Positions 16,900 through 47,789 of a stretch of 64,000 bases of DNA are shown here, piece after piece. Origin of the DNA: the human T2T-CHM13v2.0 reference genome, Homo sapiens. Numbering within the stretch: the stretch's first letter is position 1; each line of letters starts with the position of its first letter. The notes beneath the pieces were generated by a model, which was given only the letters and a program-made list of their open reading frames with translations, was not told the origin of the DNA and did not search any database. The DNA lies in NCBI RefSeq assembly GCF_009914755.1, contig NC_060928.1, one strand, 5' to 3'. The position numbers and the translations under genes are program-made.

Positions 16900-19880
<2,981 letters not shown>

Positions 19881-20170: not shown

Positions 20171-21032
20171 TTAATCTCACTATTATCAATAGCATATTAT
20201 AAATTTAAATATAATTATAAATGATGGCATCTAGTAATAATATAATTTCAACACATCAGAAAAATAGCAAAATATTGCTTAGAAAAATTTTAATATGAGT
20301 ATAGAAAAAAATTAAAATATGGAGAGCAGACAAGAAATAAAGTCCCGCATTTTATAAATGTCCCTTTAAAAATAAAAGATAGAAATGCTCTTTTGCAGCC
20401 AATTCTCAATGTTGGTTACAGTTTAAACTCACTTTTACTTTAATCTCAGTGTTTCAACTTACTGTAATGAATTCTTGAACAGAAGAAAAGATTTAAGTTA
20501 TCTGTCCCAAAAACGTGGAAATAATATGGGGTAATGATAAATATGTGGTTACCTATCCTTCCAAAAATCATATTGGAAACATATGCCATTATAGATTATA
20601 TCTGTGTGCAATGCTTCACAAATTATCAACATCATGGAATATTTTTCTTAGCGTTAACGATTAACTGTTATCATATTTCCAGAGAGTAATTTGGTCTTAT
20701 ATGCCACATGTTACGTATAAAGTTGTTAGAAATTTGGTAGTGTTTCAAGAGTGTTATTACTTGAATCTAAAGATAATTTCTAAGTAAAGGGTTGGAATTA
20801 TCTGAGTGCCTAAGGAGTATTTTATTCCATCTTATGTTTTATAAGAAGGTTCTCTTAAAAATTCTTATTTTGCATAATTTTGTTCCAACTAATTTAAAAG
20901 AATTAGTTTCAGGCCTACAAGGCAAAACTGTCTGGAATTCAGCTGAACTTCCAGATGCTGTTTAAATAACATGAAAGTAATTATATAAATTTTAATTAAT
21001 AAGGCATCATGAACTTTTTCTATTTTTCTTAC

Positions 21033-21813
21033 TAAATAAGCAAATGTACATTGGAAGTATATGCCTTTTAGAAGGATAAAATAATTTTTGGTGTATTATT
21101 TGGTATTTTAAATATATGCCTGTGGGTAAATAGAATTAAAAGTCGATGGCCCTGAAGGAAAACTGAAGCTGATCTTTTCCAGATGTACCAAAGAGACACA
21201 TTTAGGAACCAGAAGTTGCATTTATATTGATATATTTTTCTAGGTTTGAGAAGTTCTCTGTTATTATCTCTTTGAATAAACTTTCTACCCCTATCTCTTT
21301 CTTTACCTCCTCTTTAAATATTTCAAATCTCTTTATAGATTTTAAAATGACTATTTAATGTAGTGATGTGAATGTTTAGCAATTAGGTGTTGTCTTATTT
21401 TTATTTTTAACCAAACTTAATTTAATATTTGAGGGACTATAGTAAATAATATTTTTTGACTAGAACAATAAATGGATTAATATATATTATTTTATTCCTT
21501 ATGTTAACTAACATTTTTACTAATATGTTTACTAATATTACTTATATGTATATATTAGTAATAATATATGTATATATTAGTAAACATAAGGAATAAAATA
21601 ATATGTATTAAATTAAGTTAGTTTAAAAATAAAAATAAGACAACAGCTAATTGTTAAACATTCACATCACTATATTAAATAGTCATTTTGAAATCTATAA
21701 ATAGATTCATTTTTTCTTACCCACAGGCATATATTTAAAATACCAAATAATTTACCAAAAATTATTTTATCCTTCTAAAAGGCATATACTTCCAATGTAC
21801 ATTTGCTTATTTA
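21033..21813. repeat. Interrupted long inverted repeat (arms 21033-21129/21717-21813, 21326-21427/21606-21707, 21484-21511/21577-21604)
   Basis: Manual reverse-complement alignment gives 95/97, 95/102 and 27/28 identities. Confidence 0.95.
21125..21317 (+). repeat. Dispersed direct copy of 24970-25150 plus 25460-25475 (donor site without its Alu)
   Basis: 109-bp exact match, 21172-21280 = 25021-25129; flanks align with about 10 substitutions and one 4-bp indel. Confidence 0.95.
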
Positions 21814-21827
21814 AGAAGAAATGAGAT

Positions 21828-21980
21828 GATACATATGCTATGAAGTAGAAAGATAAAAATATGTATAAAAACTTTGACATTTTGTAATAGAACAATAAAT
21901 GTATTAATATATATTATTTGAAATGATATATATGCTATGAAGTAGAAAGACAAAAATATGTATAAAAACTTTGACATTTT
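21828..21980 (+). repeat. 56-bp direct repeat (21828-21883 and 21925-21980); the spacer 21888-21919 also occurs at 21461-21492
   Basis: GATA(C/T)ATATGCTATGAAGTAGAAAGA(T/C)AAAAATATGTATAAAAACTTTGACATTTT twice; TAGAACAATAAATG(G/T)ATTAATATATATTATTT twice. Confidence 0.92.
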
Positions 21981-23726
21981 ATAATCTTTTCTGAAACTTT
22001 AAAATTAGCATTTCCCCTTAGATTACTAGCAAACTGATAATCTTTGAAATTCAATTGCACTAATTTAAAAAATGGACATAAAGTCAGATTTAAAAAAAAA
22101 TGTAATCCTGCTTGGCTCTTTGAAATACTTTTAGTTGAATTATTAATTCCTTTGTCAACAATAGTAGTTAGTATTGATTATAATCTTTCCAGTTGTATGT
22201 TACCTTCACACTCCCTCTTTCACTCCCATAGTCTTGTGACTATATACCACCTTTACCAGTCCTACACGGTATACTAATTTTCCTCATAGGAATGTCACAG
22301 ATTTTAGAGCAAGTTCCATTTAATGACTGTAAACTTTTAGATAATCCCTTTTAGAAAATCCCACCTAGCAACAGACTCTAATGGAAATGACTGTTGTACC
22401 AATTAATCATTATGAAAAGAATTTATAAAATAAAGGTGCATCAATGCTGCTGGTATGATTTCATTTTAAATATAAGGAGATGAATCCTCTCAACATTATT
22501 GTAGTAACTATAATATTCACCAGAAATTACAAATATAATTTTTTACATATTGACATTTTAAGCCTCAAAAAGAATGTCATGTAATTAGAGCTGCAATACA
22601 TCTCAATTGCAATAAAAGAATAATTACTTGAAAATAAATCTCAGTCTTTAATTGAAAAGAAAGAACCAGATAGTTTGTCTTTGCAATTTTGAGGAAGGCG
22701 GTATTTAATTAAATTCCACACGAATACTACTATCACCGTATATAAAAGAATCAAACATTTACTGATAATTTAAAAAAGATATTTTTAGACTTTATTGCAT
22801 TTAAACCAGGCAGTTTATATTTTTTAAAAAAATATAGTAAGCAGGCACGTCTTTTGGAAAGATTTTTACGAGGGAAAGATTTGTATTAAAAATAGATACT
22901 TCTTTCTTTGAAATAGTAAAGTTTGGATAACACATTGAGGATGTGAACATAAAAGTATGTGTAGAGTATAATTTATGTTTATTAAGTACCTGTTATGTGT
23001 TAATCACTGTTCAAAATATATGTTATACTTTCTCTACCCCAGCCTTCACCACAACCCTGTATTTACCTGTGAGAAATCAGACTTTGACAGATTATGGACA
23101 CAAAATTAGTAAATAACAAATTTTGCCTAATTCTCAATGCCAAGACCTTTGTATAATATGCCATGTTCTCTCAAATTATTAAAATTATTAAGATGTGTGA
23201 ATAGACTGCACAAAACTCTATGTAATAAATTGTATTACAATATGGGAACTTCTTTAAAGAAAAATTCATCAGAAAACTAAGAGTGATAGTGTGGGGCAGA
23301 GGACAGGGGGTTGTAAGAATATTTTATTTGACCAACCTATGTAACACATGGCTTTATAATAATGATCTCAAGAGATATGATATGTAATTTAGCACCTCAA
23401 GCTTCAACTTGAAAATAAAGTATATGCAGAAATATGTGTTATAAAATGTGCCTTTAATAGTCAATAAAACTAGCAAGAGTCATTGCTTATTACCTGATAG
23501 CTAGTAGGTTTTCAAATTAAAAAATTCATCTGTTACACTCCACTTAGCATATCTATAACTTTCCAACAAAGGATACAATCTTCAAGCAATTACTTTAATG
23601 GGCAAAGGATGGAAGGCTAAAATAAGAGGTAATAGAAGGGAAAATGAAAAGCAATTGTATATTGTCTATTAAGACAGAGAAGGAGATCACCTGGAGATGC
23701 AAATCTGTTTTCTCAAATGACTGTAT

Positions 23727-23845
23727 TAACAGCATATATAAAAACTGGAAAGCAGCATATATGCATAACAGCATATATAAAAACTGAAAAGCAGCATATA
23801 CATATAAATATATGCTTTATTAATGGTATATATAAAAACTGAAAA
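23727..23845. repeat. 39-bp tandem duplication plus a partial third copy
   Basis: TAACAGCATATATAAAAACTG(G/A)AAAGCAGCATATA at 23727 and 23766; TATATAAAAACTGAAAA again near 23829. Confidence 0.85.
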
Positions 23846-24237
23846 ATTCAGACAGCTTCAGATGTAGTCACAGATATTTTTATATTTGTAGTATTTATTA
23901 TAATTAACGTAAAGCAACATGCAGAAACCAAAAGAGTGATTGTCATGATTCACTGAAGCAACTATATCTACATCCATATAGAAATATGTCTCACTAATTA
24001 TGTATCTGTACTAAAACAAATCTGTTGAAATTCTTCACTCATTTTAAACCCTAATATTAACCTTTTTATTCAGTAATATTTAAAAAAATTTGTAAAATTT
24101 TAATTACACATTTGAGCAAGCTTGTAACTCATTGGACATAGTGTGGAATAAAAATATAATCTAGAGCACAAGAAGTCAAGAATATAAGAGAAATGGTTAA
24201 GCACTAATATGCTTTCAGTGGCAAGTGAGATTTTTTT

Positions 24238-24276
24238 CTTTAAACAGGGTCTGGTCCTGCTGCCCAGGCTGGAGTT
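24238..24276 (-). mobile_element. Extremely 5'-truncated Alu (J/monomer-like 3' end), 39 bp
   Basis: Minus strand AACTCCAGCCTGGGCAGCAGGACCAGACCCTGTTTAAAG; perfect 16-bp TSD CAAGTGAGATTTTTTT at 24222-24237 and 24277-24292. Confidence 0.85.
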
Positions 24277-25143
24277 CAAGTGAGATTTTTTTGAGTCACC
24301 CTACTGTGACAAAGTTGTCATCTAGTGATAAAAATAATTTAAAAGGGAACAATTTGATACTAGTGTAGGTGTTGGCAGTGTTAGAACTTCTTATCCTTTT
24401 GAGCCAGCGAAAATTGCCAAGACTAAAGATGGATAGTTACTTGAAATAGATTGTTTCTGTAGGATACTGAAATATTTAGTAGGCTCTTCACTTTGACTAC
24501 TATATTACACTTAAAAAGTTTAAGTTTATATTTTGTGTCAAAATATTATCCTTGCAATAATCATATTTTTGTCTTTATTTTTAATTACTTAAACACTTTT
24601 ATTCATATGTACATTTTTCCATCCAACTCTAGTTCATGATGTTGGCTTTAGAGTTAGAGTTCCTCTGTGTTAGGAATTCAGAGCTTCCTAGCAGGGTATC
24701 TTCAGCGTCTGAAAATCCTTTGACAAGATACAATGGCTTTTACTCAAAATTATCTAAGGGTAAGAATATATTACCAAAAACATGATTATCGGGTGTCTCT
24801 TTTGAGAATTATCATATTCTTTCTTTAATCATGGGAACCTTATCTTTCCTTGTTCTCAGTCCTAATAAGGAAAGAAGAGAGTTGAAATAACAAATGAAAA
24901 TGACTAATGGAATATTCTTTATATTTTTTCATAGAGAATAAAGGATATGAAATGATGCCTGATGGCAAAGGTAAATAAACAGAATTGAAAGTCGTTAGCA
25001 CTGAAGGAAAATTGAAGATAATCTTTTCCAGATGTACCAAAGAGACACATTTAGGAACCAGAAGTTGCATTTATATTGATATATTTTTCTAGGTTTGAGA
25101 AGTTCTCTGTTATTATCTCTTTGAATAAAGTTTCTACCCCTAA

Positions 25144-25449
<306 letters not shown>

Positions 25450-25489
25450 TAACTCTTTCTTTACTTCCTCTTTAAGATCAATAATTCTT

Positions 25490-25780
25490 GGCCGGGCGCG
25501 GTGGCTCACGCCTGTAATCCCAGCACTTTGGGAGGCTGAGGCGGGTGGATCATGAGGTCAGGAGATGGAGACCATCCTGGCTAACACAGTGAAACCCCCT
25601 CTCTACTAAAAAATACAAAAAATTAGTCGGGCGTGGTGGTGGGCGCCTGTAGTCCCAGCTACTCGGGAGGCTGAGGCAGGAGAATGGTGTGAACCCGGGA
25701 GGCAAAGCAGTGAGCCCAGATCGCGCCACTGTACTCCAGCCTGGGCGACAGAGCGAGACTCCGTCTCAAAAAAAAAAAAA
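25490..25780 (+). mobile_element. AluY element
   Basis: GGCCGGGCGCGGTGG start; TSD AAGATCAATAATTCTT at 25474-25489 and 25779-25794. Confidence 0.95.
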
Positions 25781-28331
25781 GATCAATAATTCTTAATTTG
25801 CCATTTTGAGGTAATTTTGTATATCCTACAGGAGTGTTTCATTGTTTTCTATTTTTTCTTTTGTTTCCTCTGTGTATTTTCAAATAACCTGTCCAGTCTC
25901 ACTAATTCTTTCTTCTGCTTGATCAGTTCTGCTATTAATGGACTCTAATGCGTTTCATCAGTATGCCAATTGCATTTTTCATCTCCAGAATTTCTCCTTG
26001 ATTCTTTTGAATTATTTAAATCTCTCTGTTAAATTTATCTGATAGAACTTTGAATTCCTTCTCTGTATTATCTTGAATTTTTCTGAGTTTTCTTAACACA
26101 GCTAGTTTGAATTCTCTATCTGAAAGGTCGCATATCTCTGTTTCTCCAGCATTGGTTCCTGGTGCCTTATTTTGTTACTTGGTAAAGTTACGTTTTCCTG
26201 GATAGTGTTGATGCTAGTAGATGTTCTTCAGTGTCTGGGCATTGAAGAGTTAGGTATTTATTGTAGTCACTGTCTGGGCTTGTAGGTGCCTGTCTTTCAT
26301 GGGAAGGCTTTCCAGACATTTGACAGGACTTAGGTGTTGATCTAAGCTGGGGGCTCCACACACCCAGTAACAATGTGGCCCTTGTGGACTCGTAGAGGTA
26401 CCACCTTGATGGCCTTGGGCAAGATCTAAGATAATTCTCTGGATTACCAGGCAGACACTGTTGTCAACTTTCCTTACTTTTTCCCAAACACACAAAGTCT
26501 CTCTCTGTTCTGAGCCACCTAAAGCTGGAGGTGGAGTTACAAAAAACTCCTCCCTGTGGCCACCACCACTCGACTGCACTGAGTCAGACCTGAAGTCAGC
26601 CCAGCAGTGGGTCTTGTCCAAGGCCTGTTATATCAACTCCCTGGCTACTGCCTATGTTCACTCAAGTCCCTGGAGCTCTACAATCCAGTAAATGGCAAAG
26701 ACAGCCAGGCCTGTGTCCTTCCCTTCAGGGAGTTAATGCCCCCAGGCCCTGAATGGATCCAGAGGTGCCCTCAGGGAGTCTGGGATTTGAATTAAAAACC
26801 TTAGAAATCTACCTGGTGTTCTATTCTACTGTTGCTGAGCTGGCACTCGAACCACAAGATGCAGTCCTTCCCACTCTTCCCTCCCCTTTCCAAGGGCAGA
26901 GGAGCATCACTCTATAGCTACCACCACCCAGGCCACTAGGAATACTGCCAGACTACCTCTGATGTTCCCTTAAGGCCCAACGGCTTTTAAAATGTCTTGT
27001 GGTGAATGCTGCTTGCCCTGGGACTCACCTTTCAGGGCAGTGGGCTTCCTCCTGTTTCAGGGAAGGTCCAGAAATGCCATTCAAGGGTCAAGTCCTGGAA
27101 GCAAGAGCCCACTTGGTGCTCTACCACCATGTGGCCATGCTGGTACCCAAGTTGCAAGACAAAGTCCCCTTTATATTTTCCTCTTCTTTTCTCAAGCAGA
27201 AGGAGTTTTGCCCTATAGCTAACACAGCTCAAAAACGTGCTGAGTCTAATCTGAAGCCAGCAAGTCTCAAAGGCTAACCCAAGGTCCTAGATCTAGTAAC
27301 TCGGTGTCACTGTTGATTATTTAGGGCCCAAGGGCTCTTCAGTTAGCAGGTGATTAATGCTGCCAGGACTAGGTTCTTTCCTTCAAGGCAGCGGGTTCCC
27401 ATCTGGTGCAAGGATGTGTCTAGAAATGTCACCTGGAAGCTAGGGACTGGAAAAAAGGCCTCCTGACTCTGACTGGTGCCCTATCCTGCTATGGCTTAGC
27501 TGGTATTCAAGATGCAAGTCAAAGTCCTCTGTATTTTCCCTCTTCTCTCCTAAAGCAGGAGGAAAGGGTCTCTTTTGAAGCCAGGAGCTGTGCAGCCTGG
27601 GGTTAAGGGAGGGATGAGGCCAGCATTCCCTTGGCTGCACCTACTTATGTCTCAGTATGTCACGTGTCTTCTCAGTCCACTGTCTCTGGGCCTAGTTCAG
27701 TGCTAGGACTGGCCTAAATGTTGCTGTCCTCATAGCCTATACTGCTTTTCAAGTTCATTTAGAGACACAGAGTTCTTTCAAGTTCACTTAGAGACACAGC
27801 ACTTTAGCTCATGGTAACGAAGTTTGCAGGAACTCAAGTTCTGACCACTGGGATGGGCTAGTCATGGGCTAGTTCCCTCTGGCTAGCGCTGATATAAGGG
27901 CTCTCTCCATAGGCAGATGTCAGCTGAGTTTGGGCCAGTTTTTCTTTCTGCTGTAACAGAACAGCAATGAGTTTAATGCCTCACAATTGCTGTGTTCTCC
28001 CTCCCCCAGCACCCAGAGACATTCTCTGCACCACCCTGTGGCTGCCAGGAGTGAAGGAGGCATGGCATCCGCAATTCTGGATTGTTTTATTTATCTCTTC
28101 AGTGACTCTTTCAGTGATGTGAAGATAAAATCAGCTACTATGGGGACTTAATTGATTTTTGGTTCTTGTAAAGGTGTTTTTGGGTTTTTTTTTGTTTTGT
28201 TTTGTTTTTTCTCTGTAGATAGTTGTTAAACTGGTGTTCTTCGGTGGTGGTGGCGGGATGATCATTGGAGACTTCTTTTCCACCACCTTGCTCCTCCTCT
28301 GAAGTGGTATTTATATTGATATTACTAAACT

Positions 28332-29027
28332 TGTTACAGGTAGTTAGACAGGCATGAGCGGGACAGAAGAGGGCTCTCCCCCACCCACCATGAATGTCAG
28401 GTGATGGTTTGACAATGATCGCATTGCCCCTCTAAAAGTGATAAATTGAGAGCCTGCCCTAGGGAAAAGCCATTTCCTGATGGTCCACACCTGTAGCACT
28501 TAAGTGCTAATTGAATGCAGACACCAGGGAGAACCAACTTCCTGGCCATACACGTTAAGAGACAAAAAGACAGAGTATGACCTTCCAGGGCACACCACTG
28601 GAAAAGGTAAGAAAGCCTCAGGCGGGCATGCATAAAACTTCCTAAACACACTGCTGTGCTCAGTTCCCAAGGGTAAGGAGGGCACTGCACATGCGGGCAG
28701 CCCATCCTAAGGGAAGAATCATGGGAAAGGGGTACAACACATCAGAAGTGGGCCAGCCTATAAAGTCCTAGAATCATGGTTAAACGCCTCACTTATCCTT
28801 CAAGTGGCCTCACTTATCCTTCAAGTCGCTTCCAAGTGTACTTTCCTTTCTTTCCTGTTATAAACCCTTTTAAAATAAACTTCCACTCTTGCTCTGAAAC
28901 TTGTCTCAGTCTCTTTTTCTGTCTCATGCCCCTCAGTCAAATTTTCTTCTGAGGAGGCAAGAATTGAGGTTGCTGCAGATCCATATGGATTTGCTGCTGG
29001 TAAGTCGGATACCTTCCACTGGTAACA
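28332..29027 (+). mobile_element. ERV1 solo LTR (MER50-family-like), ~700 bp
   Basis: TGTTAC...GTAACA inverted termini; TATAAA near 28759 and AATAAA near 28874; 4-bp TSD AACT at 28328-28331 and 29028-29031. Confidence 0.85.
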
Positions 29028-29980
29028 AACTTAGTCCCAATTCTTCTTCTGATTTTATAGTACAATTACCTTGTTACTTCATGATTCTAATGAAAATTCT
29101 GAATACATGCAGAATTATTTCCCTTTCCTTAAAAATTACCAGTATCACAACCTAACAAGAACATTTTCCTCCCACGTTTTCTAATTATCATTTGAAGACT
29201 GAAGCTTTCACCTTTTTTTCTAGAATAAAAAGATAGATGATTAGTTTTAGTTCAGGAAACTTGTTTCTATAGCTATTTTTTGTTCTCTAAAATTTCTCTA
29301 CTAGGTTGATGGATTTTTCAAATCCTCAGATGTAGACCCCCTACTGATTATAAATCAGTTGCAATTTCTAAAGTGGGTGAACAAGTGCTACCTGATTTTC
29401 TTTAGGTTTCTCACATACATTTTCAACAACATCTTAAAATTTGTGGTAAGTTTAATATTTTTTGAGGAAATTAAAATAAAATTTACTGGATATCTTCATA
29501 ATTATACCTTTTGGCATAATTTAGCTGATAGAACTTTCTTAAAAACAAACTTAGAATGTCACTTCTATGCTTTGGCTCAGTCCTGTAATTATGTTTTCAA
29601 AGCACTCAATGAAAAAAAATGCACGTATAACTGAAAGAAATTTACAGACATTTTATATGTCTCTACATAACTCAAAGGCAAATTACACATTTAATATTAA
29701 ATTTGAGATCTTAGACAAACATATTGTGAATAGGCCATAAAACAAGGTAAGTTAAAGAAAACCCATTTCCATGCAGTTGTACATGGGACATCTGACTCCA
29801 TAGTAGTCTTTATCATTCATTTATCTACAAATTCTAATAGATTGTCAAGTAAATATATTCAAATATATTCAATTGTAATTAAATTAATACAAATAATTTA
29901 ATTTGGAATTATTCACAACTAAATGTTTTATCACAATCTTTAAAGTATGCAATATTTTGATAATTTATATTAAGATCTAC

Positions 29981-30470
29981 TGTATCGGGGTTCAATCAGA
30001 GGAGCAAAACCACTGGAATGTGTATATAGATAAAATGTGGGATCTGTCACAAGGATTTGACTTTTACAACTGCGGGAGCTAGTCAGGCATTCACTGTAAG
30101 CCTGCTGTGTCCATGTCTGATTCTAAACCCTGAAGTCTGTGGCAGATAGTGAGGAAGAGATGGATATATATAAAGTTGAAAAAGAAAAAAGACACGCAGG
30201 AAACCATAAGAACAGACTGAAATCCACATCCCTTAATGATGTACGGATGTCCTGCAGGAGAAGCTAGACTTGCTCCCTGTGATGCTAAATAACTGTCCCA
30301 GAAGTCGGAGAAAAGGAAGGAGGATCTAGGAATGATGGAGCAGTTGCAGGTCTGGCTGCTGTCTCACACCAAAGAGGTCAGCCAGTAGATGAGTAAGAAC
30401 ATGTGTGAACCACAAAATAGTTGTTGCTTCATTTCGGACCACCAGATCTCACACAAGAAATTACTGAATA
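29981..30470 (-). mobile_element. Old ERVL LTR (MLT2-like)
   Basis: Starts TGTATCGGGGTTCAATCAGAGGAGCAAAACCACT, followed by AAGGATTTGACTTTTACAACTGCGGGAGCT; right boundary approximate. Confidence 0.5.
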
Positions 30471-31119
30471 CAACTCCACTATTTATTAGGTAAAAATGAA
30501 TATACAAGGTTTAGATAAGCATGAAAATAAAGATAATCATGGTTTTAATTGATTGAAGGGAGGGGTAAAAAAACCTCCCTTCTGCTACAAAGAACAAATT
30601 TAAGTAAAACAGAATCTGAAAAGCTAAGCATAATGTAGCAGAAAATTTATTGCACATATCTTAAATGATCTGTAAAATAAATTCCAAAATTGCGATACTT
30701 CATAAATTCATAATACTCTATAATTCATACATGTCACAGTTAATCACTTATCTTTCTTCAAAAATAGAGCATAACATTTACTGTATTTTTATATTCAGAT
30801 AACTAAATGAATATCATAGATTTCTTGGCCTAAAAGAGTGTCATGAAGGGAATATCTATTATTAATTGAGTACTCACTATATGTACAGTATTTGATAGGC
30901 ATCTTAGAAAGTTACTAGTAAAATAAAAACTTGTGTTTGAGTACAAAATGAGTGCCCCATTTTGTTTTGTGTCCCTATACCATTACAAATATTTCATTAT
31001 ATTAATAAATTCCCTGTACTTGGAAAAATTTGGGGGTTTACCAAGAAGATACCAAAATTTATTTTGTAATTCTGATATTTTCTTCAAGCAGATTAGAATA
31101 ATTAAACATATCAATATTT

Positions 31120-31447
31120 GCCTGGCACGGTGACTCACGCCTGTAATCCCATCACTTTGGGAAGCGGAGGTGGGCGGATCACGAGGTCAGGAGATAGAGG
31201 CTATCCTGGTTAACCTGGTGAAAGAAACCCCGTCTCCACTAAAAATACAATTAGCCGGGCGTGGTGTCGGGCGCCTGTAGTCCCAGCTACTCAGGAGGCT
31301 GAGGCAGGAGAATGGCGTGAACGCAGGAGGCGGAGCTTGCAGTGAGCCTAGATCGCGCCACTGCACTCCAGCCTGGGCGAAAGTGTCAGACTCTGCATCA
31401 AAAAAAAAAAAAAAAAAAAAAGTGTATATATATATATATATATATAT
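31120..31447 (+). mobile_element. AluY element with A-tail followed by (TA)n
   Basis: GAATGGCGTGAAC and GGAGCTTGCAGTGAGC diagnostics. Confidence 0.92.
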
Positions 31448-32419
31448 AAATATTGAAAATGTTCGAAGTTCTTTCCAATACTTAGAAGGAACTAAGATCA
31501 AATCATATCAGTGCTTGAATATGCCAGTTGAGAGCTCCAATATTAATTCCCACTGATAATCCTCATTGCATAACTAGGAATTCCCAAAGTGAGTCTAATA
31601 TGAACTCAGAGAGCAAACTTGGTTTCTGGCTGGGTAATTGCTAACTTCAATTGCTTTTATTTTTAGTACTTCATCTCTTCTCTGGCCACTGCTGTCCAGA
31701 GATTTCCTGTCAACGCTCACCCTCAGTTCACTCCTCTGAGGTGGGTCCATCAAGGTAAAGCTGTTCTCTGCTGAACTCAACAAGAGACATCCTCAGGCTG
31801 TTGCCTCCAATTTTTATGGGGCCAAAAAGCCAGGAAATCTCTTGTAAAGACTTTTAACCAGTTACAGAGATTCCCATGAGGTTTTTCATAGAATTCATGA
31901 AGTGACACATGAAATTACACAGCAAATGTCTGTAATGCAACACAAAATTTAAAAAATGTGTATATATATTTGGCAAGAAAAAGTTGATAAGACACCAGTG
32001 ATATTAGAGTTAATATTTCACTCAGCAGAAGTTAATACAATGTGTAATTTGAAATTCTGTATTAATCAGATGTGAAATGAAAATTTCTTATTTATATTTT
32101 TAAAAAGTTATGTTTATATTTCACCGAAGCTTACTTAATGAGTTATACATTTTAATTGAGTGTGTATTTCTTTTATAGACTCAATTAAAATTAATTGACT
32201 ACCTATATGGATGCTAATTAAAAAAATTATTACTTACAAAATTATTTATTATTTATGATATTATTTACTATGTCATTTGTATATTCAATATTATTAATTT
32301 ATGATATACTATTTTGTTATTAAAATATGTGTTCTTTAAAACAAAAACCAGCCCCCATTCATAAAACTGATTGGAAGAGGTACTAGTTCAGCTGACCAAT
32401 AGAAAGCTGCAATTATGAT

Positions 32420-41270: not shown

Positions 41271-41621
41271 AAAGTGAAGTGATCTTCAAATTCCATGTTA
41301 TCGATTTCCCACTATGATTATGTGTCATAGTAGAAAAATTTTAAAGTTGCTAAAGAGTAATCTAAACCAATAATGTTTCGTGAAATATTGTTCACTGGCC
41401 ACTTGTATAATGTACAACTGTGGAGACTTTTAAAAATGGTGAATTTAGTCCCACAGCTGGCATGCTATCAGGACAAAGATTTTTGACAGATTGGGCACAC
41501 AATGTCCATATCAGAGTTGCTTGAAAAATAGAAAAATGATTTTTACTTATCATATGGTTTAATATGGTCATAATGCTTCAACATAGTGTGTGGGAAGAAC
41601 AGAGCACTCTAAGTAAATGCT

Positions 41622-41977
41622 TGTATCAGTACGTTTTCATGCTGCTGATAAAGACGTGTCAGAGACTGTGTAATTTATAAAGAAAAGAGGTTTAATGGAC
41701 TCACAGTTCAACGTGGCTGAGGAGGCCTCACAATCATGGCAGAAGGTGTCACGTCTTACATGGCGGCAGATGAGAGAGAATGAGAATGAAGTGAAAGGGG
41801 CTTCTCCTTATAAAACCATCAGATCTCATGAGAGTTATTCACTATCATGAGAGCAGTATGGGGGAAACCCCTCCATGATTCAATTATCTCCCACCAGGTC
41901 CCTCCCACAAAAAGTGGGAGTTATGGGAGCTACAATTCAAGATGAGATTTGGGTAGGGACACAGCCAAATCATATCA
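41622..41977 (-). mobile_element. THE1 (B/C-like) solo LTR
   Basis: TGTATCAGT..CATGCTGCTGATAAAGAC...CCAAATCATATCA; 356 bp. Confidence 0.9.
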
Positions 41978-42677
41978 GTGTTGCATCCCAGAGTATCATA
42001 GTTTTTCACATCTGGTTGGTTAGAACCTGTCCCATGGCCTCACATAACTTAAAGGTGGTAGAAGAGTATACTTATGCAGGCACTTGGAATAAAAGAAAGT
42101 AACAAAACCACAGAATTCAAATCTCTGAGTAATGGGACTAAAAAGCTATTTTAAATACTTTCAACAAGTTCAATAAGTATGACGAAATTTATAACCACTA
42201 CTCTGATTTAACTTCTGTAAATGTGTTAGAGAGATTTTGATTTGAACTATTACGTTTAATTCCTTTACTCATTTAATTCAATAATGTAATTGAAAATATT
42301 TGGTTCTGATTCAGTTTGTTATGCAAATATAATGCTCTCCTAACTTTTAAAGTTTCTGTGAATGTAACCAAAATTAATATATACCACTTTCCTAGTTCAA
42401 AATGTTTATCATATAACATCAACAAAGCATAGCACTTATTAATATTTTATTCTGCTTATTGACTATCTAAAAAGATGAAGTAAAAAGTAAATGCCAGGGG
42501 AAATACATTCCTGTTTGTGAAGTTTCTGAAAAAGTAAGCTATTTTTGCGCACTGCAGTATTTGATGAAATAGTCATCTCAACTACCACAGCCAGTTGAAA
42601 ATCTCATTCCCTCCATTTGGAGACTTTTACATTTATGTTTACAGAGTTGTCTCAGGAGCTAAAATTAACAAGAAACT

Positions 42678-46280: not shown

Positions 46281-47285
46281 ATATATTAAAATATTCAGAA
46301 AATGATTTGTTCAAGTAGTGTAATTTTAAAATTATTTTTAAAAATTCAAATTTATATAATTTAGAAAATTTGAGGGACATAATATTACATATGTTTGTCA
46401 ACACAAAAATATAATTTAACCTTGGGAAATATAAAATATATACTATTTTATTATAAAGCAAGATTTTTTTAACACAATGTGATTTAGAAAACTATATATA
46501 ATACACTATTAAAAATAATAATGTTTTCTCAAATGTACTGACTAGTAATACCACAGTGAAAGGTAACATAATTTCCCAGGTAAATTTGGAAAAATAAAAG
46601 AAATATTCAGAGTTAAGAACAACAGTAAAAATATTATTTAATTAGGGCTATTTATATCCCACCAAGGGAATCCCAGAAACTTGACACTTAGGCAGTTCAC
46701 AACCTCATCTTATCTAGGTATATCATATTATAGTCAAACTCAAGTCTATATCACTTACCTTAGTACTTGAAATATGCTAAGTATGTGCTAATTCACACTT
46801 AATGAATAAATAAAGAACTCATGTTATAAAGGTAAAATGGGTAGCTAAAAATGAATAAAGAATTAGAGAAAAAATTTAGCCACTTCTCAGAAAGATTTCC
46901 ACCTTCGTTGAGGAGGTGCTATGACAAAACAAATTTGAAGTAGATGCTTAGTCTCAAAGGGCAGACTAATCTTATATTTTGTATTCAAAAAGGAAATTAT
47001 TCTCAGAAATAGGAAGAATATAACACAATTCTTGGTAAGGAGAAAAAGTTGGTCATGATGGATAACGTGAAATATATGGCCTCAACATAAAGTACTTGAA
47101 AATCAAATAACAAAAAACGTATTATATTTGTGTTGGCATACAAAGTTGTTTGTGAGGAAGGACTAAAATTTTATCTGGTTGGAAAATAGGGAGGAAGTCA
47201 GCATTGATTAAAGATGTTTTACAACAAGAATTCATAAAGCATTAGAGCATAAGATAGATTTCAGAAGAGCAAATATTTCAATGTG

Positions 47286-47646
47286 TGGATTAGTCCGTTC
47301 TTACACTGCTATAAAGAAACTACCAGAGACTGGGTAATTTATGAACAAAGGAGGTTTAATTGACTCACAGTTCCACATGGCTGAGGAGGCCTCAGGAAAC
47401 TAATCATGGTGGAACGGGAAGCAGACATCTTCACAAGGCAGCGGGAGAGAGAGACAAGAGTGAGACAGGAACTGCCAAACCCTTATAAAGCCATCAGATC
47501 TCGTGAAAACTCACTCACTATCACGAGAACAGCATAGGGGAAACTGTCTCCATGATCCAATCACCTCCCACCAGGTTTCTTCCTCAATACTTGCAGATTA
47601 TAATCAAGTTAAGATTTGGGTCAGGACACATAGACAAATCATATCA
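47286..47646 (-). mobile_element. MSTA-like solo LTR
   Basis: TGGATTAGTCCGTTCTTACACTGCTATAAAG...AAATCATATCA; 5-bp TSD ATGTG/GTGTG. Confidence 0.9.
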
Positions 47647-47789
47647 GTGTGTTTGTAGTTTTGGGCACTAGGATACACTGGAAAGCTGGATTGATTTGAA
47701 TTTTACCCTGTCATTTATTCAGCTGATAACTTTTACTGGGTCTTTGATTCTAAAAACTTTCATTAATTGTATTTCCCATTGTAAGAACT

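What the first reader, a model, noticed from the sequence alone, without database searches (positions are those of the whole stretch)
21033..21980. ~780-bp interrupted palindrome assembled from local templates (probable multi-step template-switch product)
Seen: three nested inverted arm pairs (97 bp at 95/97, 102 bp at 95/102, 28 bp at 27/28) around an AT-rich centre near 21545. The right arm is almost continuous (21577-21813). The left arm is broken by a 193-bp copy of a locus 3.85 kb downstream and by a segment containing a 32-bp copy of 21888-21919. A 56-bp direct repeat lies just to the right. Junction microhomologies are visible: GGTAA at 21125-21129 is shared by arm A and the distal donor, and ATATTATTT is shared by the 32-bp copy and arm C. 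TTTTTCTTAC occurs at both 21023 and 21711. Established: serial microhomology-mediated template switching (FoSTeS/MMBIR) creates such inverted and direct mosaics, and long palindromes are usually unstable. Inference: this is an old, fixed complex rearrangement. If transcribed it would give ~225 bp of non-Alu dsRNA stem, a possible ADAR or Drosha/Dicer substrate, and as DNA it could form hairpins or cruciforms.
Basis: partly seen in the sequence, partly recalled or inferred. Interest (0 to 1): 0.8.

Follow-up and report, generated by a model that had tools for sequence, protein, structure and literature searches.

The report
Old patchwork palindrome built from neighbours
An 800-base, single-copy, AT-rich inverted repeat in a human chromosome 4 gene desert is a tens-of-millions-of-years-old scar of DNA copying that jumped between nearby templates; it is a clean example of a known kind of mutation, with no sign of function.

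Summary
Window 21025-21821 is an interrupted palindrome. Arm pairs: A 105 nt at 96%, B 102 nt at 93%, C 38 nt at 92%. The right arm is continuous.

The left arm carries a 188-193-nt copy of 24970-25475. That copy spans a boundary between unique sequence and a LINE-1 element and stops inside the LINE-1, which continues for at least 1.5 kb only at the donor. So the direction is donor to palindrome.

Other local copies:
- a 34-40-nt repeat (21453-21492 and 21880-21919)
- a 67-nt direct repeat (21822-21985)
- a 22-mer found only twice in the 3.1-Gb genome, both in this neighbourhood

Arms and flanks are otherwise single-copy, so this is not a transposon family.

All eight repeat pairs diverge alike: pooled 35 of 571, or 6.1%, homogeneity p = 0.93. 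That fits one event or a short burst, probably 15-60 Myr ago. Junctions share 3-16 nt.

Best reading: a fixed product of replicative template switching (FoSTeS/MMBIR type), with fold-back.

It fails the PATRR definition. No Rfam match, no annotated gene. One step versus several, and which arm is ancestral, need primate outgroups that I could not reach.

The parts
21025..21129 (.). Left arm segment A (outer), inverted partner of 21717-21821
   Evidence: 101 of 105 complementary, E 9e-45. It contains a 60-nt perfect run, 21033-21092 with 21754-21813.
21125..21317 (+). Insert 1: direct copy of the donor 24970-25153 plus 25463-25475. It begins in the GGTAA shared with arm A and replaces about 12 nt of the arm.
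   Evidence: 178 nt at 94.4% plus 31 nt at 90%. The first 97 nt occur in the genome only here and at the donor. The last 94 nt or so belong to a LINE-1 family, and that homology stops at 21317 in 25 of 29 HSPs.
21310..21346 (+). 19-nt, 1.9-copy tandem at the junction of insert 1 and arm B. CTCTTTA is shared by the donor end and the start of arm B.
   Evidence: TRF gives 83% matches; junction print.
21326..21427 (.). Left arm segment B, inverted partner of 21606-21707
   Evidence: 95 of 102 complementary.
21428..21476 (+). 49-nt asymmetry present only in the left arm, flanked by a TTAATA direct repeat. Its 3' part starts the 34-40-nt repeat 21453/21459-21492.
   Evidence: Global alignment of the left arm against the reverse complement of the right arm; junction print. 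No source was found for 21428-21452 in the window.
21477..21514 (.). Left arm segment C (inner), inverted partner of 21574-21611
   Evidence: 35 of 38 complementary, with a 22-nt perfect run.
21515..21573 (.). Very AT-rich centre, remodelled by slippage. It has a 12-nt, 3.2-copy array (21500-21538), a 22-nt tandem pair (21543-21586), and weak inner arms 21513-21538 with 21552-21577 (77%, 13-nt loop).
   Evidence: The inner 135 bp (21477-21611) is 87% AT.
21574..21821 (.). Continuous right arm (C', B', 9-nt link, A')
   Evidence: In the genome it matches only itself and the two left-arm pieces, with 1 first-look candidate.
21822..21985 (+). Two 67-nt direct repeats (21822-21888 and 21919-21985, 63 of 67) separated by a 30-nt filler. 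The filler belongs to the second copy (21880/21886-21919) of the 34-40-nt repeat.
   Evidence: Single-copy in the genome apart from the local match.
24970..25475 (+). Donor locus of insert 1: unique sequence 24970-25072, then an antisense LINE-1 ORF1 fragment from 25073. It is now split by an Alu (25154-25444; 18-nt target-site duplication 25136-25153 and 25445-25462) that the copy lacks.
19763..19790 (+). 28-nt stretch matching the reverse complement of 21568-21595 (26 of 28). Its 22-nt core has only these two copies in the genome.
   Evidence: E 1e-5; pattern with up to 1 mismatch gave 1 forward and 1 reverse hit; the reversed control gave 0 and 0.

Best explanation
Window 21025-21985 is a fixed, neutral-looking scar of error-prone replicative repair. 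It formed in one event or a short burst, roughly in the catarrhine-ancestor time range. A 3' end repeatedly left its template and re-primed at short homologies within about 4 kb (FoSTeS/MMBIR-type template switching, including a fold-back). It is not a gene, and not a transposon.

Shown:
- The arms are inverted copies of each other.
- Insert 1 is a copy of a locus 3.85 kb downstream, and the direction is donor to palindrome.
- The copy was made before an Alu entered the donor.
- Further short copies link the centre and inner arm to 19763-19790, and the left arm to the right flank.
- All copies are equally diverged.
- All partners are otherwise unique in the genome.

Inferred, as the most economical path:
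1. The ancestral order was left flank, A, a 12-nt link, B, the 49-nt segment, the 34-nt segment, the 67-nt segment, right flank.
2. Synthesis passed the 34-nt segment.
3. It picked up 22-28 nt like 19763-19790 and slipped in the AT-rich centre.
4. It folded back and copied the left arm in reverse, skipping the 49 nt between the TTAATA repeats.
5. It then copied the 67-nt segment.
6. It resumed at the 34-nt segment, which duplicated both the 34-nt and the 67-nt segments.

Insert 1 entered the left arm in the same episode or soon after, at GGTAA and CTCTTTA, and broke the symmetry.
For: Local copying is far beyond chance: E 9e-45 to 3e-76. It is confined to this spot in the 64-kb window.

Direction of insert 1:
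- Only 2 of the 40 scored genome matches (from 2027 first-look candidates) cover its first 97 nt: the insert itself and the donor.
- Its last 94 nt lie antisense inside LINE-1 ORF1 in 5 of 5 family loci checked.
- Family homology runs on to 27298 at the donor in 28 of 28 loci, but ends at 21317 in the copy.

Relative timing: the copy keeps the empty site of the donor's Alu.

Not a repeat family:
- Right arm: 1 candidate.
- Flanks: 1 candidate each.
- Right-flank repeats: 2 candidates, both local.
- Inner part: only weak AT-rich low-complexity hits.
- Control repeat: 7778 candidates.

A 22-mer occurs exactly twice in 3.1 Gb, 1.8 kb apart.

Equal age: the 8 repeat pairs give 35 of 571 mismatches, 6.1% (95% CI 4.3-8.4), homogeneity chi-square p = 0.93.

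Junction homologies, with the share of 200,000 random position pairs in 19-27 kb that reach the same length:
- GGTAA, 5 nt (or TAA, 3 nt): 0.9% (or 7%)
- CTCTTTA, 7 nt: 0.11%
- ATATTATTT inside a 16-nt identity: 0.018% or less

Literature, passages read:
- Inverted templated insertions flanked by microhomology are the MMBIR signature, and they occur as germline variants (PMC8421209).
- Fold-back at 2-8 nt of inverted homology makes human inverted duplications, some with insertions (PMC3907307).
- Template switching creates hairpin-forming inverted repeats in primate genomes (PMC5453318; PMC10710096).
Against: No outgroup or population data could be reached, so neither the unrearranged allele, nor the order of events, nor the single-event claim is shown.

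- Six or seven switches is many for one event.
- Insert 1 is absent from the right arm. So it either came later, or the fold-back used a parental strand rather than the nascent one.
- Microhomologies were read after the fact, in 72-77% AT DNA that has since diverged 6%. Exact switch points are therefore uncertain: 3 versus 5 nt at the first junction.
- Gene conversion between the arms could make them look younger.
- The homogeneity test has little power with 28-190-nt pieces.
- The whole-genome DNA search works by shared words and scores only the best candidates. The control shows it finds families at 85-89% identity, not that it would find a very old family at 70%.
Confidence: 0.7

Rival explanations
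1. Serial, independent events over a long time. A plain inverted duplication (palindrome) arose first. Because it was fragile, it later suffered separate breaks that were repaired with templated insertions (polymerase-theta end joining, SDSA or NHEJ capture), slippage deletions and a tandem duplication.
For: - Insert 1 is absent from the right arm.
- The 49-nt asymmetry is flanked by a 6-nt direct repeat, as a simple slippage deletion would be.
- The centre shows separate slippage arrays.
- The reviews read say that longer, more similar arms with short spacers are more break-prone (PMC7999016).
Against: - All 8 repeat pairs have the same divergence (p = 0.93).
- Arms pooled give 14 of 245 (5.7%) and insert 1 gives 11 of 191 (5.8%). 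Any series must therefore have been compressed in time.
- From recall, not checked here: a 188-nt insert copied from 3.85 kb away is larger and more distant than typical theta-mediated inserts.
Confidence: 0.22
2. A member of a foldback, MITE or other DNA-transposon family with long terminal inverted repeats, or two copies of one interspersed repeat inserted head to head.
For: The shape alone: an element of about 800 bp with arms of about 250 bp.
Against: - The arms match nothing else in the 3.1-Gb assembly, while control repeats gave 2027 and 7778 candidates.
- No direct target-site duplication flanks 21025 and 21821. The bases outside the arms are themselves inverted complements.
- One arm holds a copy of a neighbouring locus.
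Confidence: 0.03
3. A selected hairpin-RNA locus (miRNA, endo-siRNA or long dsRNA precursor), or another functional structured element.
For: The RNA fold of 21015-21830 gives -347.8 kcal/mol, z -30. Template switching is reported to have seeded about 20 human miRNA genes (PMC10710096, passages).
Against: - No Rfam match at E of 1 or less in 20500-22500, or at gathering score in the whole window.
- The hub's table annotates no gene or functional element in the 64-kb window.
- The arms have decayed at the same rate as the non-paired copies, so pairing does not appear to be conserved.
Confidence: 0.03
4. An assembly artefact, such as a chimeric or missed-adapter palindrome in T2T-CHM13.
For: None specific. 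Palindromes are a known artefact class (recalled).
Against: - The arms differ at 14 of 245 sites.
- One arm carries 196-nt and 49-nt asymmetries.
- The insert differs from its donor at 11 of 191 sites.

From recall, an artefact would be near-perfect and symmetric.
Confidence: 0.02

Closest known systems
FoSTeS/MMBIR complex rearrangements and MMBIR-type templated insertions (PMC8421209, passages read; original FoSTeS and MMBIR papers recalled only)
   Same: - Several short segments copied from nearby templates.
- Both direct and inverted orientation.
- Microhomology at the joins.
- Duplication at the point of resumption.
   Different: - Described cases are de novo or somatic, or are 10-100-nt inserts with templates within 100 bp.
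- This one is an evolutionarily fixed fossil, tens of millions of years old, with inverted arms of about 250 nt and a 188-nt insert from 3.85 kb away.
- Single-event origin is not shown.
Fold-back inverted duplications (PMC3907307, passages read)
   Same: An inverted copy adjoins its template, with a short loop. Short inverted homology at the turn and occasional inserted sequence are also shared.
   Different: - The described cases are kb-to-Mb duplications with 0.8-70-kb spacers, terminal deletions and dicentric intermediates.
- Here the copy is about 250 nt, the loop is 13-59 nt or less, and the event is interstitial with no loss detectable.
Template-switch mutations, four-point model (PMC5453318 and PMC10710096, passages read)
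   Same: A switch-and-return during replication creates a reverse-complement repeat and hairpin potential in one step. This is documented in primate genomes.
   Different: The model covers one short-range switch-and-return. Its authors state that it does not treat long-range or multiple successive switches. This locus needs several, one of them 3.85 kb long.
Palindromic AT-rich repeats (PATRR11, 22, 17, 8 and others; PMC4940405, passages read)
   Same: A single-copy, several-hundred-bp, AT-rich palindrome with an especially AT-rich centre and no homology to other PATRRs.
   Different: - AT content is 76.5% (87% in the inner 135 bp), against more than 90% for PATRRs.
- The arms are 92-96% identical, with 196-nt and 49-nt asymmetries, rather than nearly perfect and spacer-free.
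- No translocation breakpoint is known here.
Long inverted repeats by the Wang and Leung criteria (as quoted in PMC4319165, passages read)
   Same: It meets all three criteria: stem over 30 bp, stem identity over 85%, spacer under 2 kb.
   Different: From recall, most such repeats in the human genome are pairs of interspersed repeats, like the Alu pair at 25239-25708 in this window. This one is built from unique sequence.

Membership tests
PATRR | Several hundred bp long | tested here: met
   The span 21025-21821 is 797 bp, with about 245 nt paired per arm.
PATRR | More than 90% AT (PMC4940405) | tested here: not met
   76.5% AT over 21025-21821; 87.4% over the inner 21477-21611.
PATRR | Nearly perfect palindrome without spacer (PMC4940405) | tested here: not met
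   The arms are 92-96% identical. The left arm has 196-nt and 49-nt extra segments. The centre is 59 nt, with only 77% inner pairing.
PATRR | Site of constitutional translocation breakpoints | not testable with these tools
   No breakpoint data are held. The PATRRs named in the passages read are at 11q23, 22q11, 17q11, 8q24, 4q35.1, 1p21.2, 3p14 and 9p21, not 4q13 (cytobands partly from recall).
Foldback/MITE transposon family | Multiple dispersed copies in the genome | tested here: not met
   The arms hit only this locus. Controls gave 2027 and 7778 candidates. Sensitivity below about 85% identity was not calibrated.
Foldback/MITE transposon family | Direct target-site duplication flanking the terminal inverted repeats | tested here: not met
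   The bases outside 21025 and 21821 are inverted complements of each other (TTTCTTAC and AGAAGAAA), not direct repeats.
FoSTeS/MMBIR-type complex rearrangement | Inserted segments templated from nearby sequence | tested here: met
   - Insert 1 comes from 3.85 kb downstream, with the direction shown.
- The 34-40-nt repeat lies 427 bp away.
- The 22-28-nt match lies 1.8 kb upstream.
FoSTeS/MMBIR-type complex rearrangement | Microhomology at the junctions | tested here: met
   Junction homologies are 3-5, 7 and 9-16 nt. Random position pairs reach 5, 7 and 9 nt or more in 0.9%, 0.11% and 0.018% of cases. The junctions were read post hoc on diverged sequence.
FoSTeS/MMBIR-type complex rearrangement | All junctions formed in one replicative event | tested here: inconclusive
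   Equal divergence of all parts (p = 0.93) is compatible with one event, but the test has low power. Outgroups are needed.
Long inverted repeat (Wang and Leung criteria) | Stem over 30 bp, identity over 85%, spacer under 2 kb (as quoted in PMC4319165) | tested here: met
   Stems of 105, 102 and 38 nt at 96, 93 and 92% identity, with spacers of 587, 178 and 59 nt.
Four-point template-switch mutation | Explained by a single short-range switch-and-return | tested here: not met
   At least three separate template sources plus the inverted arm are needed.
Known structured RNA family (Rfam 15) | Covariance-model match | tested here: not met
   0 matches at E of 1 or less in 20500-22500. 0 at gathering score in the whole window.

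The most novel reading that the evidence does not exclude
A single replication accident with at least six switches, in the germline of a catarrhine-age ancestor, both created a PATRR-like AT-rich palindrome with arms of about 250 bp out of unique sequence and disarmed it in the same act. Disarming came from the 188-nt templated insert, the 49-nt skip and slippage in the centre. The locus would then be a natural, datable record of how a long palindrome is born and made tolerable. It may still form hairpins on the lagging strand (perfect stems of up to 60 bp), or dsRNA if it is ever transcribed.
Probability: 0.3. Interest if true: 0.5.

Novelty: new member of a known kind. Interest (0 to 1): 0.32.

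Why it matters
Multi-switch replicative rearrangements are mostly known from patients and tumours. Evolutionary template-switch studies model only single short switches (PMC5453318). This locus is a fully readable, fixed, unique-sequence example at an intermediate scale. The donor direction is provable from an interrupted LINE-1, and the relative date is bracketed by an Alu insertion.

It also shows how a long AT-rich palindrome can persist once it is asymmetric. It is a useful teaching case and a possible test locus for hairpin-induced replication stalling. Nothing here suggests a function or a disease link.

Tried and rejected
- **Base rate from the genome.** I drew 100 random 10-kb stretches to estimate how often unique-sequence inverted repeats of this size occur. 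Rarity genome-wide is therefore not measured. Only the 64-kb window serves as context.
- **Pfam on the donor-side repeat.** Nine stop-to-stop ORFs from 25781-32000 gave 0 families. The family was identified instead from 12 ORFs in other genomic copies: 5 with the L1 ORF1 domain, 1 with the endonuclease domain, 6 with nothing.
- **Source of 21428-21452.** Only chance-level matches of 10-14 nt were found in the window.
- **GAP-Seq palindrome lists.** The supplements of PMC4057610 have no entry at my approximate hg19 or hg38 coordinates. Six files totalling 13 kb of text were searched, and my coordinate conversion is from recall.
- **Literature for this exact locus.** I found none. The five searches were by mechanism and palindrome class, not by coordinate, so this is not proof that the locus is unpublished.
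- **Transposon, artefact and RNA-gene readings.** Rejected for the reasons given under rival explanations.
- **The TTTTTCTTAC pair (21023 and 21711).** It is real, but 10-nt matches at E of about 2 are common in this AT-rich window. In the inferred pre-insert left arm it would form a 10-bp inverted repeat around segment A. I could not show that this matters.
Full report
**Observation**

Three nested inverted pairs exist:
- A: 21025-21129 with 21717-21821, 101 of 105, E 9e-45. It includes a 60-nt perfect run.
- B: 21326-21427 with 21606-21707, 95 of 102.
- C: 21477-21514 with 21574-21611, 35 of 38.

The right arm (21574-21821) is continuous. The left arm carries two extra segments: 21130-21325 (196 nt) and 21428-21476 (49 nt).

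To the right lie two 67-nt direct repeats (21822-21888 and 21919-21985, 63 of 67) separated by 30 nt. The motifs GGTAA, ATATTATTT and both TTTTTCTTAC copies are present.

As a single strand, 21015-21830 folds at -218.8 kcal/mol as DNA (shuffles average -60.7, z -35) and at -347.8 kcal/mol as RNA (z -30).

In a self-BLAST of all 64 kb, only nine low-copy local repeat pairs exist. The five young ones all lie in 21025-25153. The other four are 70-76% identical, old repeat copies.

**The insert and its donor**

21127-21304 matches 24976-25153 at 94.4%, and 21287-21317 matches 25445-25475.

A whole-genome search (the assembly, 3.1 Gb, is searchable) with 21127-21325 returned 2027 first-look candidates, of which 40 were scored.
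- Only two cover the first 97 nt: the insert itself and the donor.
- The other 38 cover only positions 90-194, at 89-95% identity, many of them on contig 23.

In five of five family copies checked, that 94-nt piece lies antisense inside an ORF carrying the L1 ORF1 domain, Pfam Transposase_22. Twelve ORFs were scanned: 5 had that domain, 1 had the endonuclease domain, 6 had nothing.

At the donor, the LINE-1 homology starts at 25073 and runs to at least 27298 in 28 of 28 family loci. In the palindrome it stops at 21317 in 25 of 29 HSPs. A piece that spans a boundary between unique sequence and LINE-1, and ends inside the LINE-1, can only be a copy of the donor locus. So the direction is donor to palindrome.

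The donor now holds an Alu-type insertion at 25154-25444. It has an 18-nt target-site duplication, and the copy keeps the empty site. The copy therefore predates that Alu. The name Alu and my impression that both Alus here are Y-type rest on recalled diagnostic features, not on a tool.

**Other local templates**

- 21453-21492 and 21880-21919 are direct copies. The core is 34 nt with one mismatch.
- 19763-19790 matches the reverse complement of 21568-21595 at 26 of 28. Its 22-nt core, searched with up to one mismatch, occurs exactly twice in the genome, at these two places. The reversed control pattern gave none.
- TRF adds a 19-nt, 1.9-copy tandem at the right junction of the insert (21310-21346). 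This accounts for the 8 nt I first took for orphan filler.
- TRF also adds a 12-nt, 3.2-copy array at 21500-21538. Together with the 22-nt tandem pair 21543-21586, it shows slippage in the centre.

**Not a repeat family, not an artefact, not a known RNA**

- The right arm matches only itself and the left-arm pieces (1 candidate).
- Both flanks (20300-21024 and 21986-22700) are unique.
- The right-flank repeats are unique apart from the local match.
- The inner part gives only weak, two-stranded AT-rich hits.
- As a control, another repeat of the window (41616-41981) returned 7778 candidates at 85-89% identity. The search does see interspersed families at that level. Very old families near 70% identity might escape it.
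- No direct target-site duplication flanks the arms.
- The arms differ at 14 of 245 sites and are asymmetric, which does not fit a sequencing or assembly palindrome.
- Rfam gave nothing, and the hub's table lists no gene in the window.

**Age**

Mismatch counts:

| Pair | Mismatches |
|---|---|
| A | 4 of 105 |
| B | 7 of 102 |
| C | 3 of 38 |
| Insert 1 | 10 of 178 and 1 of 13 |
| 40-nt repeat | 4 of 40 |
| 67-nt repeat | 4 of 67 |
| 28-nt match | 2 of 28 |
| Pooled | 35 of 571 = 6.1% (95% CI 4.3-8.4) |

The homogeneity test gives p = 0.93.

The Jukes-Cantor distance of 0.064 gives about 27-32 Myr at 1.0-1.2e-9 per site per year. Across rates of 0.5-2.2e-9 it gives 15-64 Myr. The rates are assumptions from recall. 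By recall, 6% is also about the human to Old World monkey neutral divergence. A polymorphism cannot last that long, so 'old and fixed' is a sound inference. Gene conversion between the arms could bias their figure downwards, but the insert-to-donor figure (5.8%) agrees with it.

**Junctions**

- Arm A to insert: GGTAA is shared by the arm and the donor if a 4-nt gap follows. In the ungapped register only TAA is shared.
- Insert to arm B: CTCTTTA is shared by the donor end (25468-25474) and the start of B, followed by the 19-nt slipped repeat.
- The 49-nt left-only segment is flanked by TTAATA on both sides.
- The 34-nt repeat and arm C share a 16-nt identity on the left arm. Of this, ATATTATTT is also shared with the right arm.

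Among 200,000 random position pairs in 19-27 kb, homologies of at least 3, 5, 7 and 9 nt occur in 7.2%, 0.9%, 0.11% and 0.018%. These junctions were read after the fact, on sequence that has since diverged.

**Mechanism**

The pattern has several features:
- several short copies, direct and inverted
- all templates within 4 kb
- microhomology at the joins
- duplication where synthesis resumes
- equal age of all parts

This is what FoSTeS/MMBIR-type template switching with a fold-back step produces. The passages I read describe inverted templated insertions with flanking microhomology as the MMBIR signature, present as germline variants (PMC8421209). They also describe fold-back at 2-8 nt of inverted homology, sometimes with inserted sequence, as the origin of human inverted duplications (PMC3907307), and template switching as a source of hairpin-forming repeats in primates (PMC5453318; PMC10710096).

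The path with the fewest unexplained bases takes the left arm as ancestral:
1. The ancestral order was left flank, A, a 12-nt link, B, the 49-nt segment, the 34-nt segment, the 67-nt segment, right flank.
2. Synthesis passed the 34-nt segment.
3. It copied 22-28 nt like 19763-19790 and slipped in the centre.
4. It turned back and copied C, B, the link and A in reverse, skipping the 49 nt between the TTAATA repeats.
5. It copied the 67-nt segment.
6. It resumed at the 34-nt segment.

Insert 1, which the right arm lacks, entered the left arm in the same episode (using a parental strand for the fold-back) or shortly after.

It leaves about 31 nt (21428-21458) and the 13-nt start of the filler without a source. 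This ordering is inference. Only outgroups can settle it.

**Comparison with known kinds**

- It meets the quoted criteria for a recombinogenic long inverted repeat: stem over 30 bp, identity over 85%, spacer under 2 kb (PMC4319165).
- It fails two defining features of PATRRs: more than 90% AT, and nearly perfect without spacer (PMC4940405). Here AT is 76.5% (87% in the inner 135 bp), and the arms are 92-96% identical with large asymmetries. By the principles in PMC7999016, cruciform extrusion and fragility should be low.
- It exceeds the single switch-and-return of the four-point model, whose authors exclude long-range and multiple switches.
- It is not a transposon family.

I therefore file it as a new member of a known kind: an evolutionarily fixed, multi-template replicative rearrangement.

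**Limits**

- No primate orthologues, population assemblies, Dfam, expression or editing data were available.
- A look in the GAP-Seq supplements found nothing at approximate coordinates.
- My five literature searches were by mechanism and palindrome class, not by coordinate, so they cannot show that the locus is undescribed.

Noticed in passing
window 25154-25444 and 25490-25780: Two Alu-type elements sit in opposite orientation only about 45 nt apart inside the donor LINE-1. Each has its own target-site duplication: an 18-nt one at 25136-25153 and 25445-25462, and a 14-nt one at 25476-25489 and 25781-25794. Together they form a 209-nt, 89% inverted repeat with a 52-nt spacer (I1). That is a second and tighter hairpin-capable structure 3.7 kb from the palindrome.
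   Followed up: partly
window 25475/25476 and 21317/21318: The copy in the palindrome ends at donor base 25475. That is exactly where the target-site duplication of the second Alu begins, at a TTT|AA-type site. From recall, this is the kind of site the L1 endonuclease nicks. It may be coincidence: by my rough post hoc estimate, about 2% for two Alu sites in about 500 nt. It may also be a recurrently nicked site that once started the template switch.
   Followed up: no
window 25073 to at least 27298: The LINE-1 at the donor lies on the minus strand and begins, at 25073, inside ORF1. It is therefore truncated on its 3' side, with no ORF2 or tail to its left. This is the opposite of the usual 5' truncation and suggests an older deletion or rearrangement breakpoint at 25073.
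   Followed up: partly
window 19763-19784 and 21574-21595: A 22-mer present exactly twice in the 3.1-Gb genome, on opposite strands 1.8 kb apart. The left-arm copy (21493-21514) has two changes.
   Followed up: yes
window 21023-21032 and 21711-21720: TTTTTCTTAC occurs at the outer edge of arm A and at the A'/B' link. In the inferred left arm before the insert, its complement would sit at the inner edge of A. Segment A would then be bracketed by a 10-bp inverted repeat, a possible fold-back primer. This may be chance in AT-rich DNA (E about 2).
   Followed up: partly
window 23721-23845: An imperfect tandem array with a period of 23 to 39 nt (CAGCATATATAAAAACTGAAAG-like, 3.4 copies), lying between the palindrome and the donor.
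   Followed up: no
window 41616-41981 and 47280-47650: Two copies, 72% identical to each other, of a roughly 360-bp high-copy family: 7778 genome candidates, with the best at 85-89% identity. The size and copy number suggest a solo LTR. I did not identify it.
   Followed up: no
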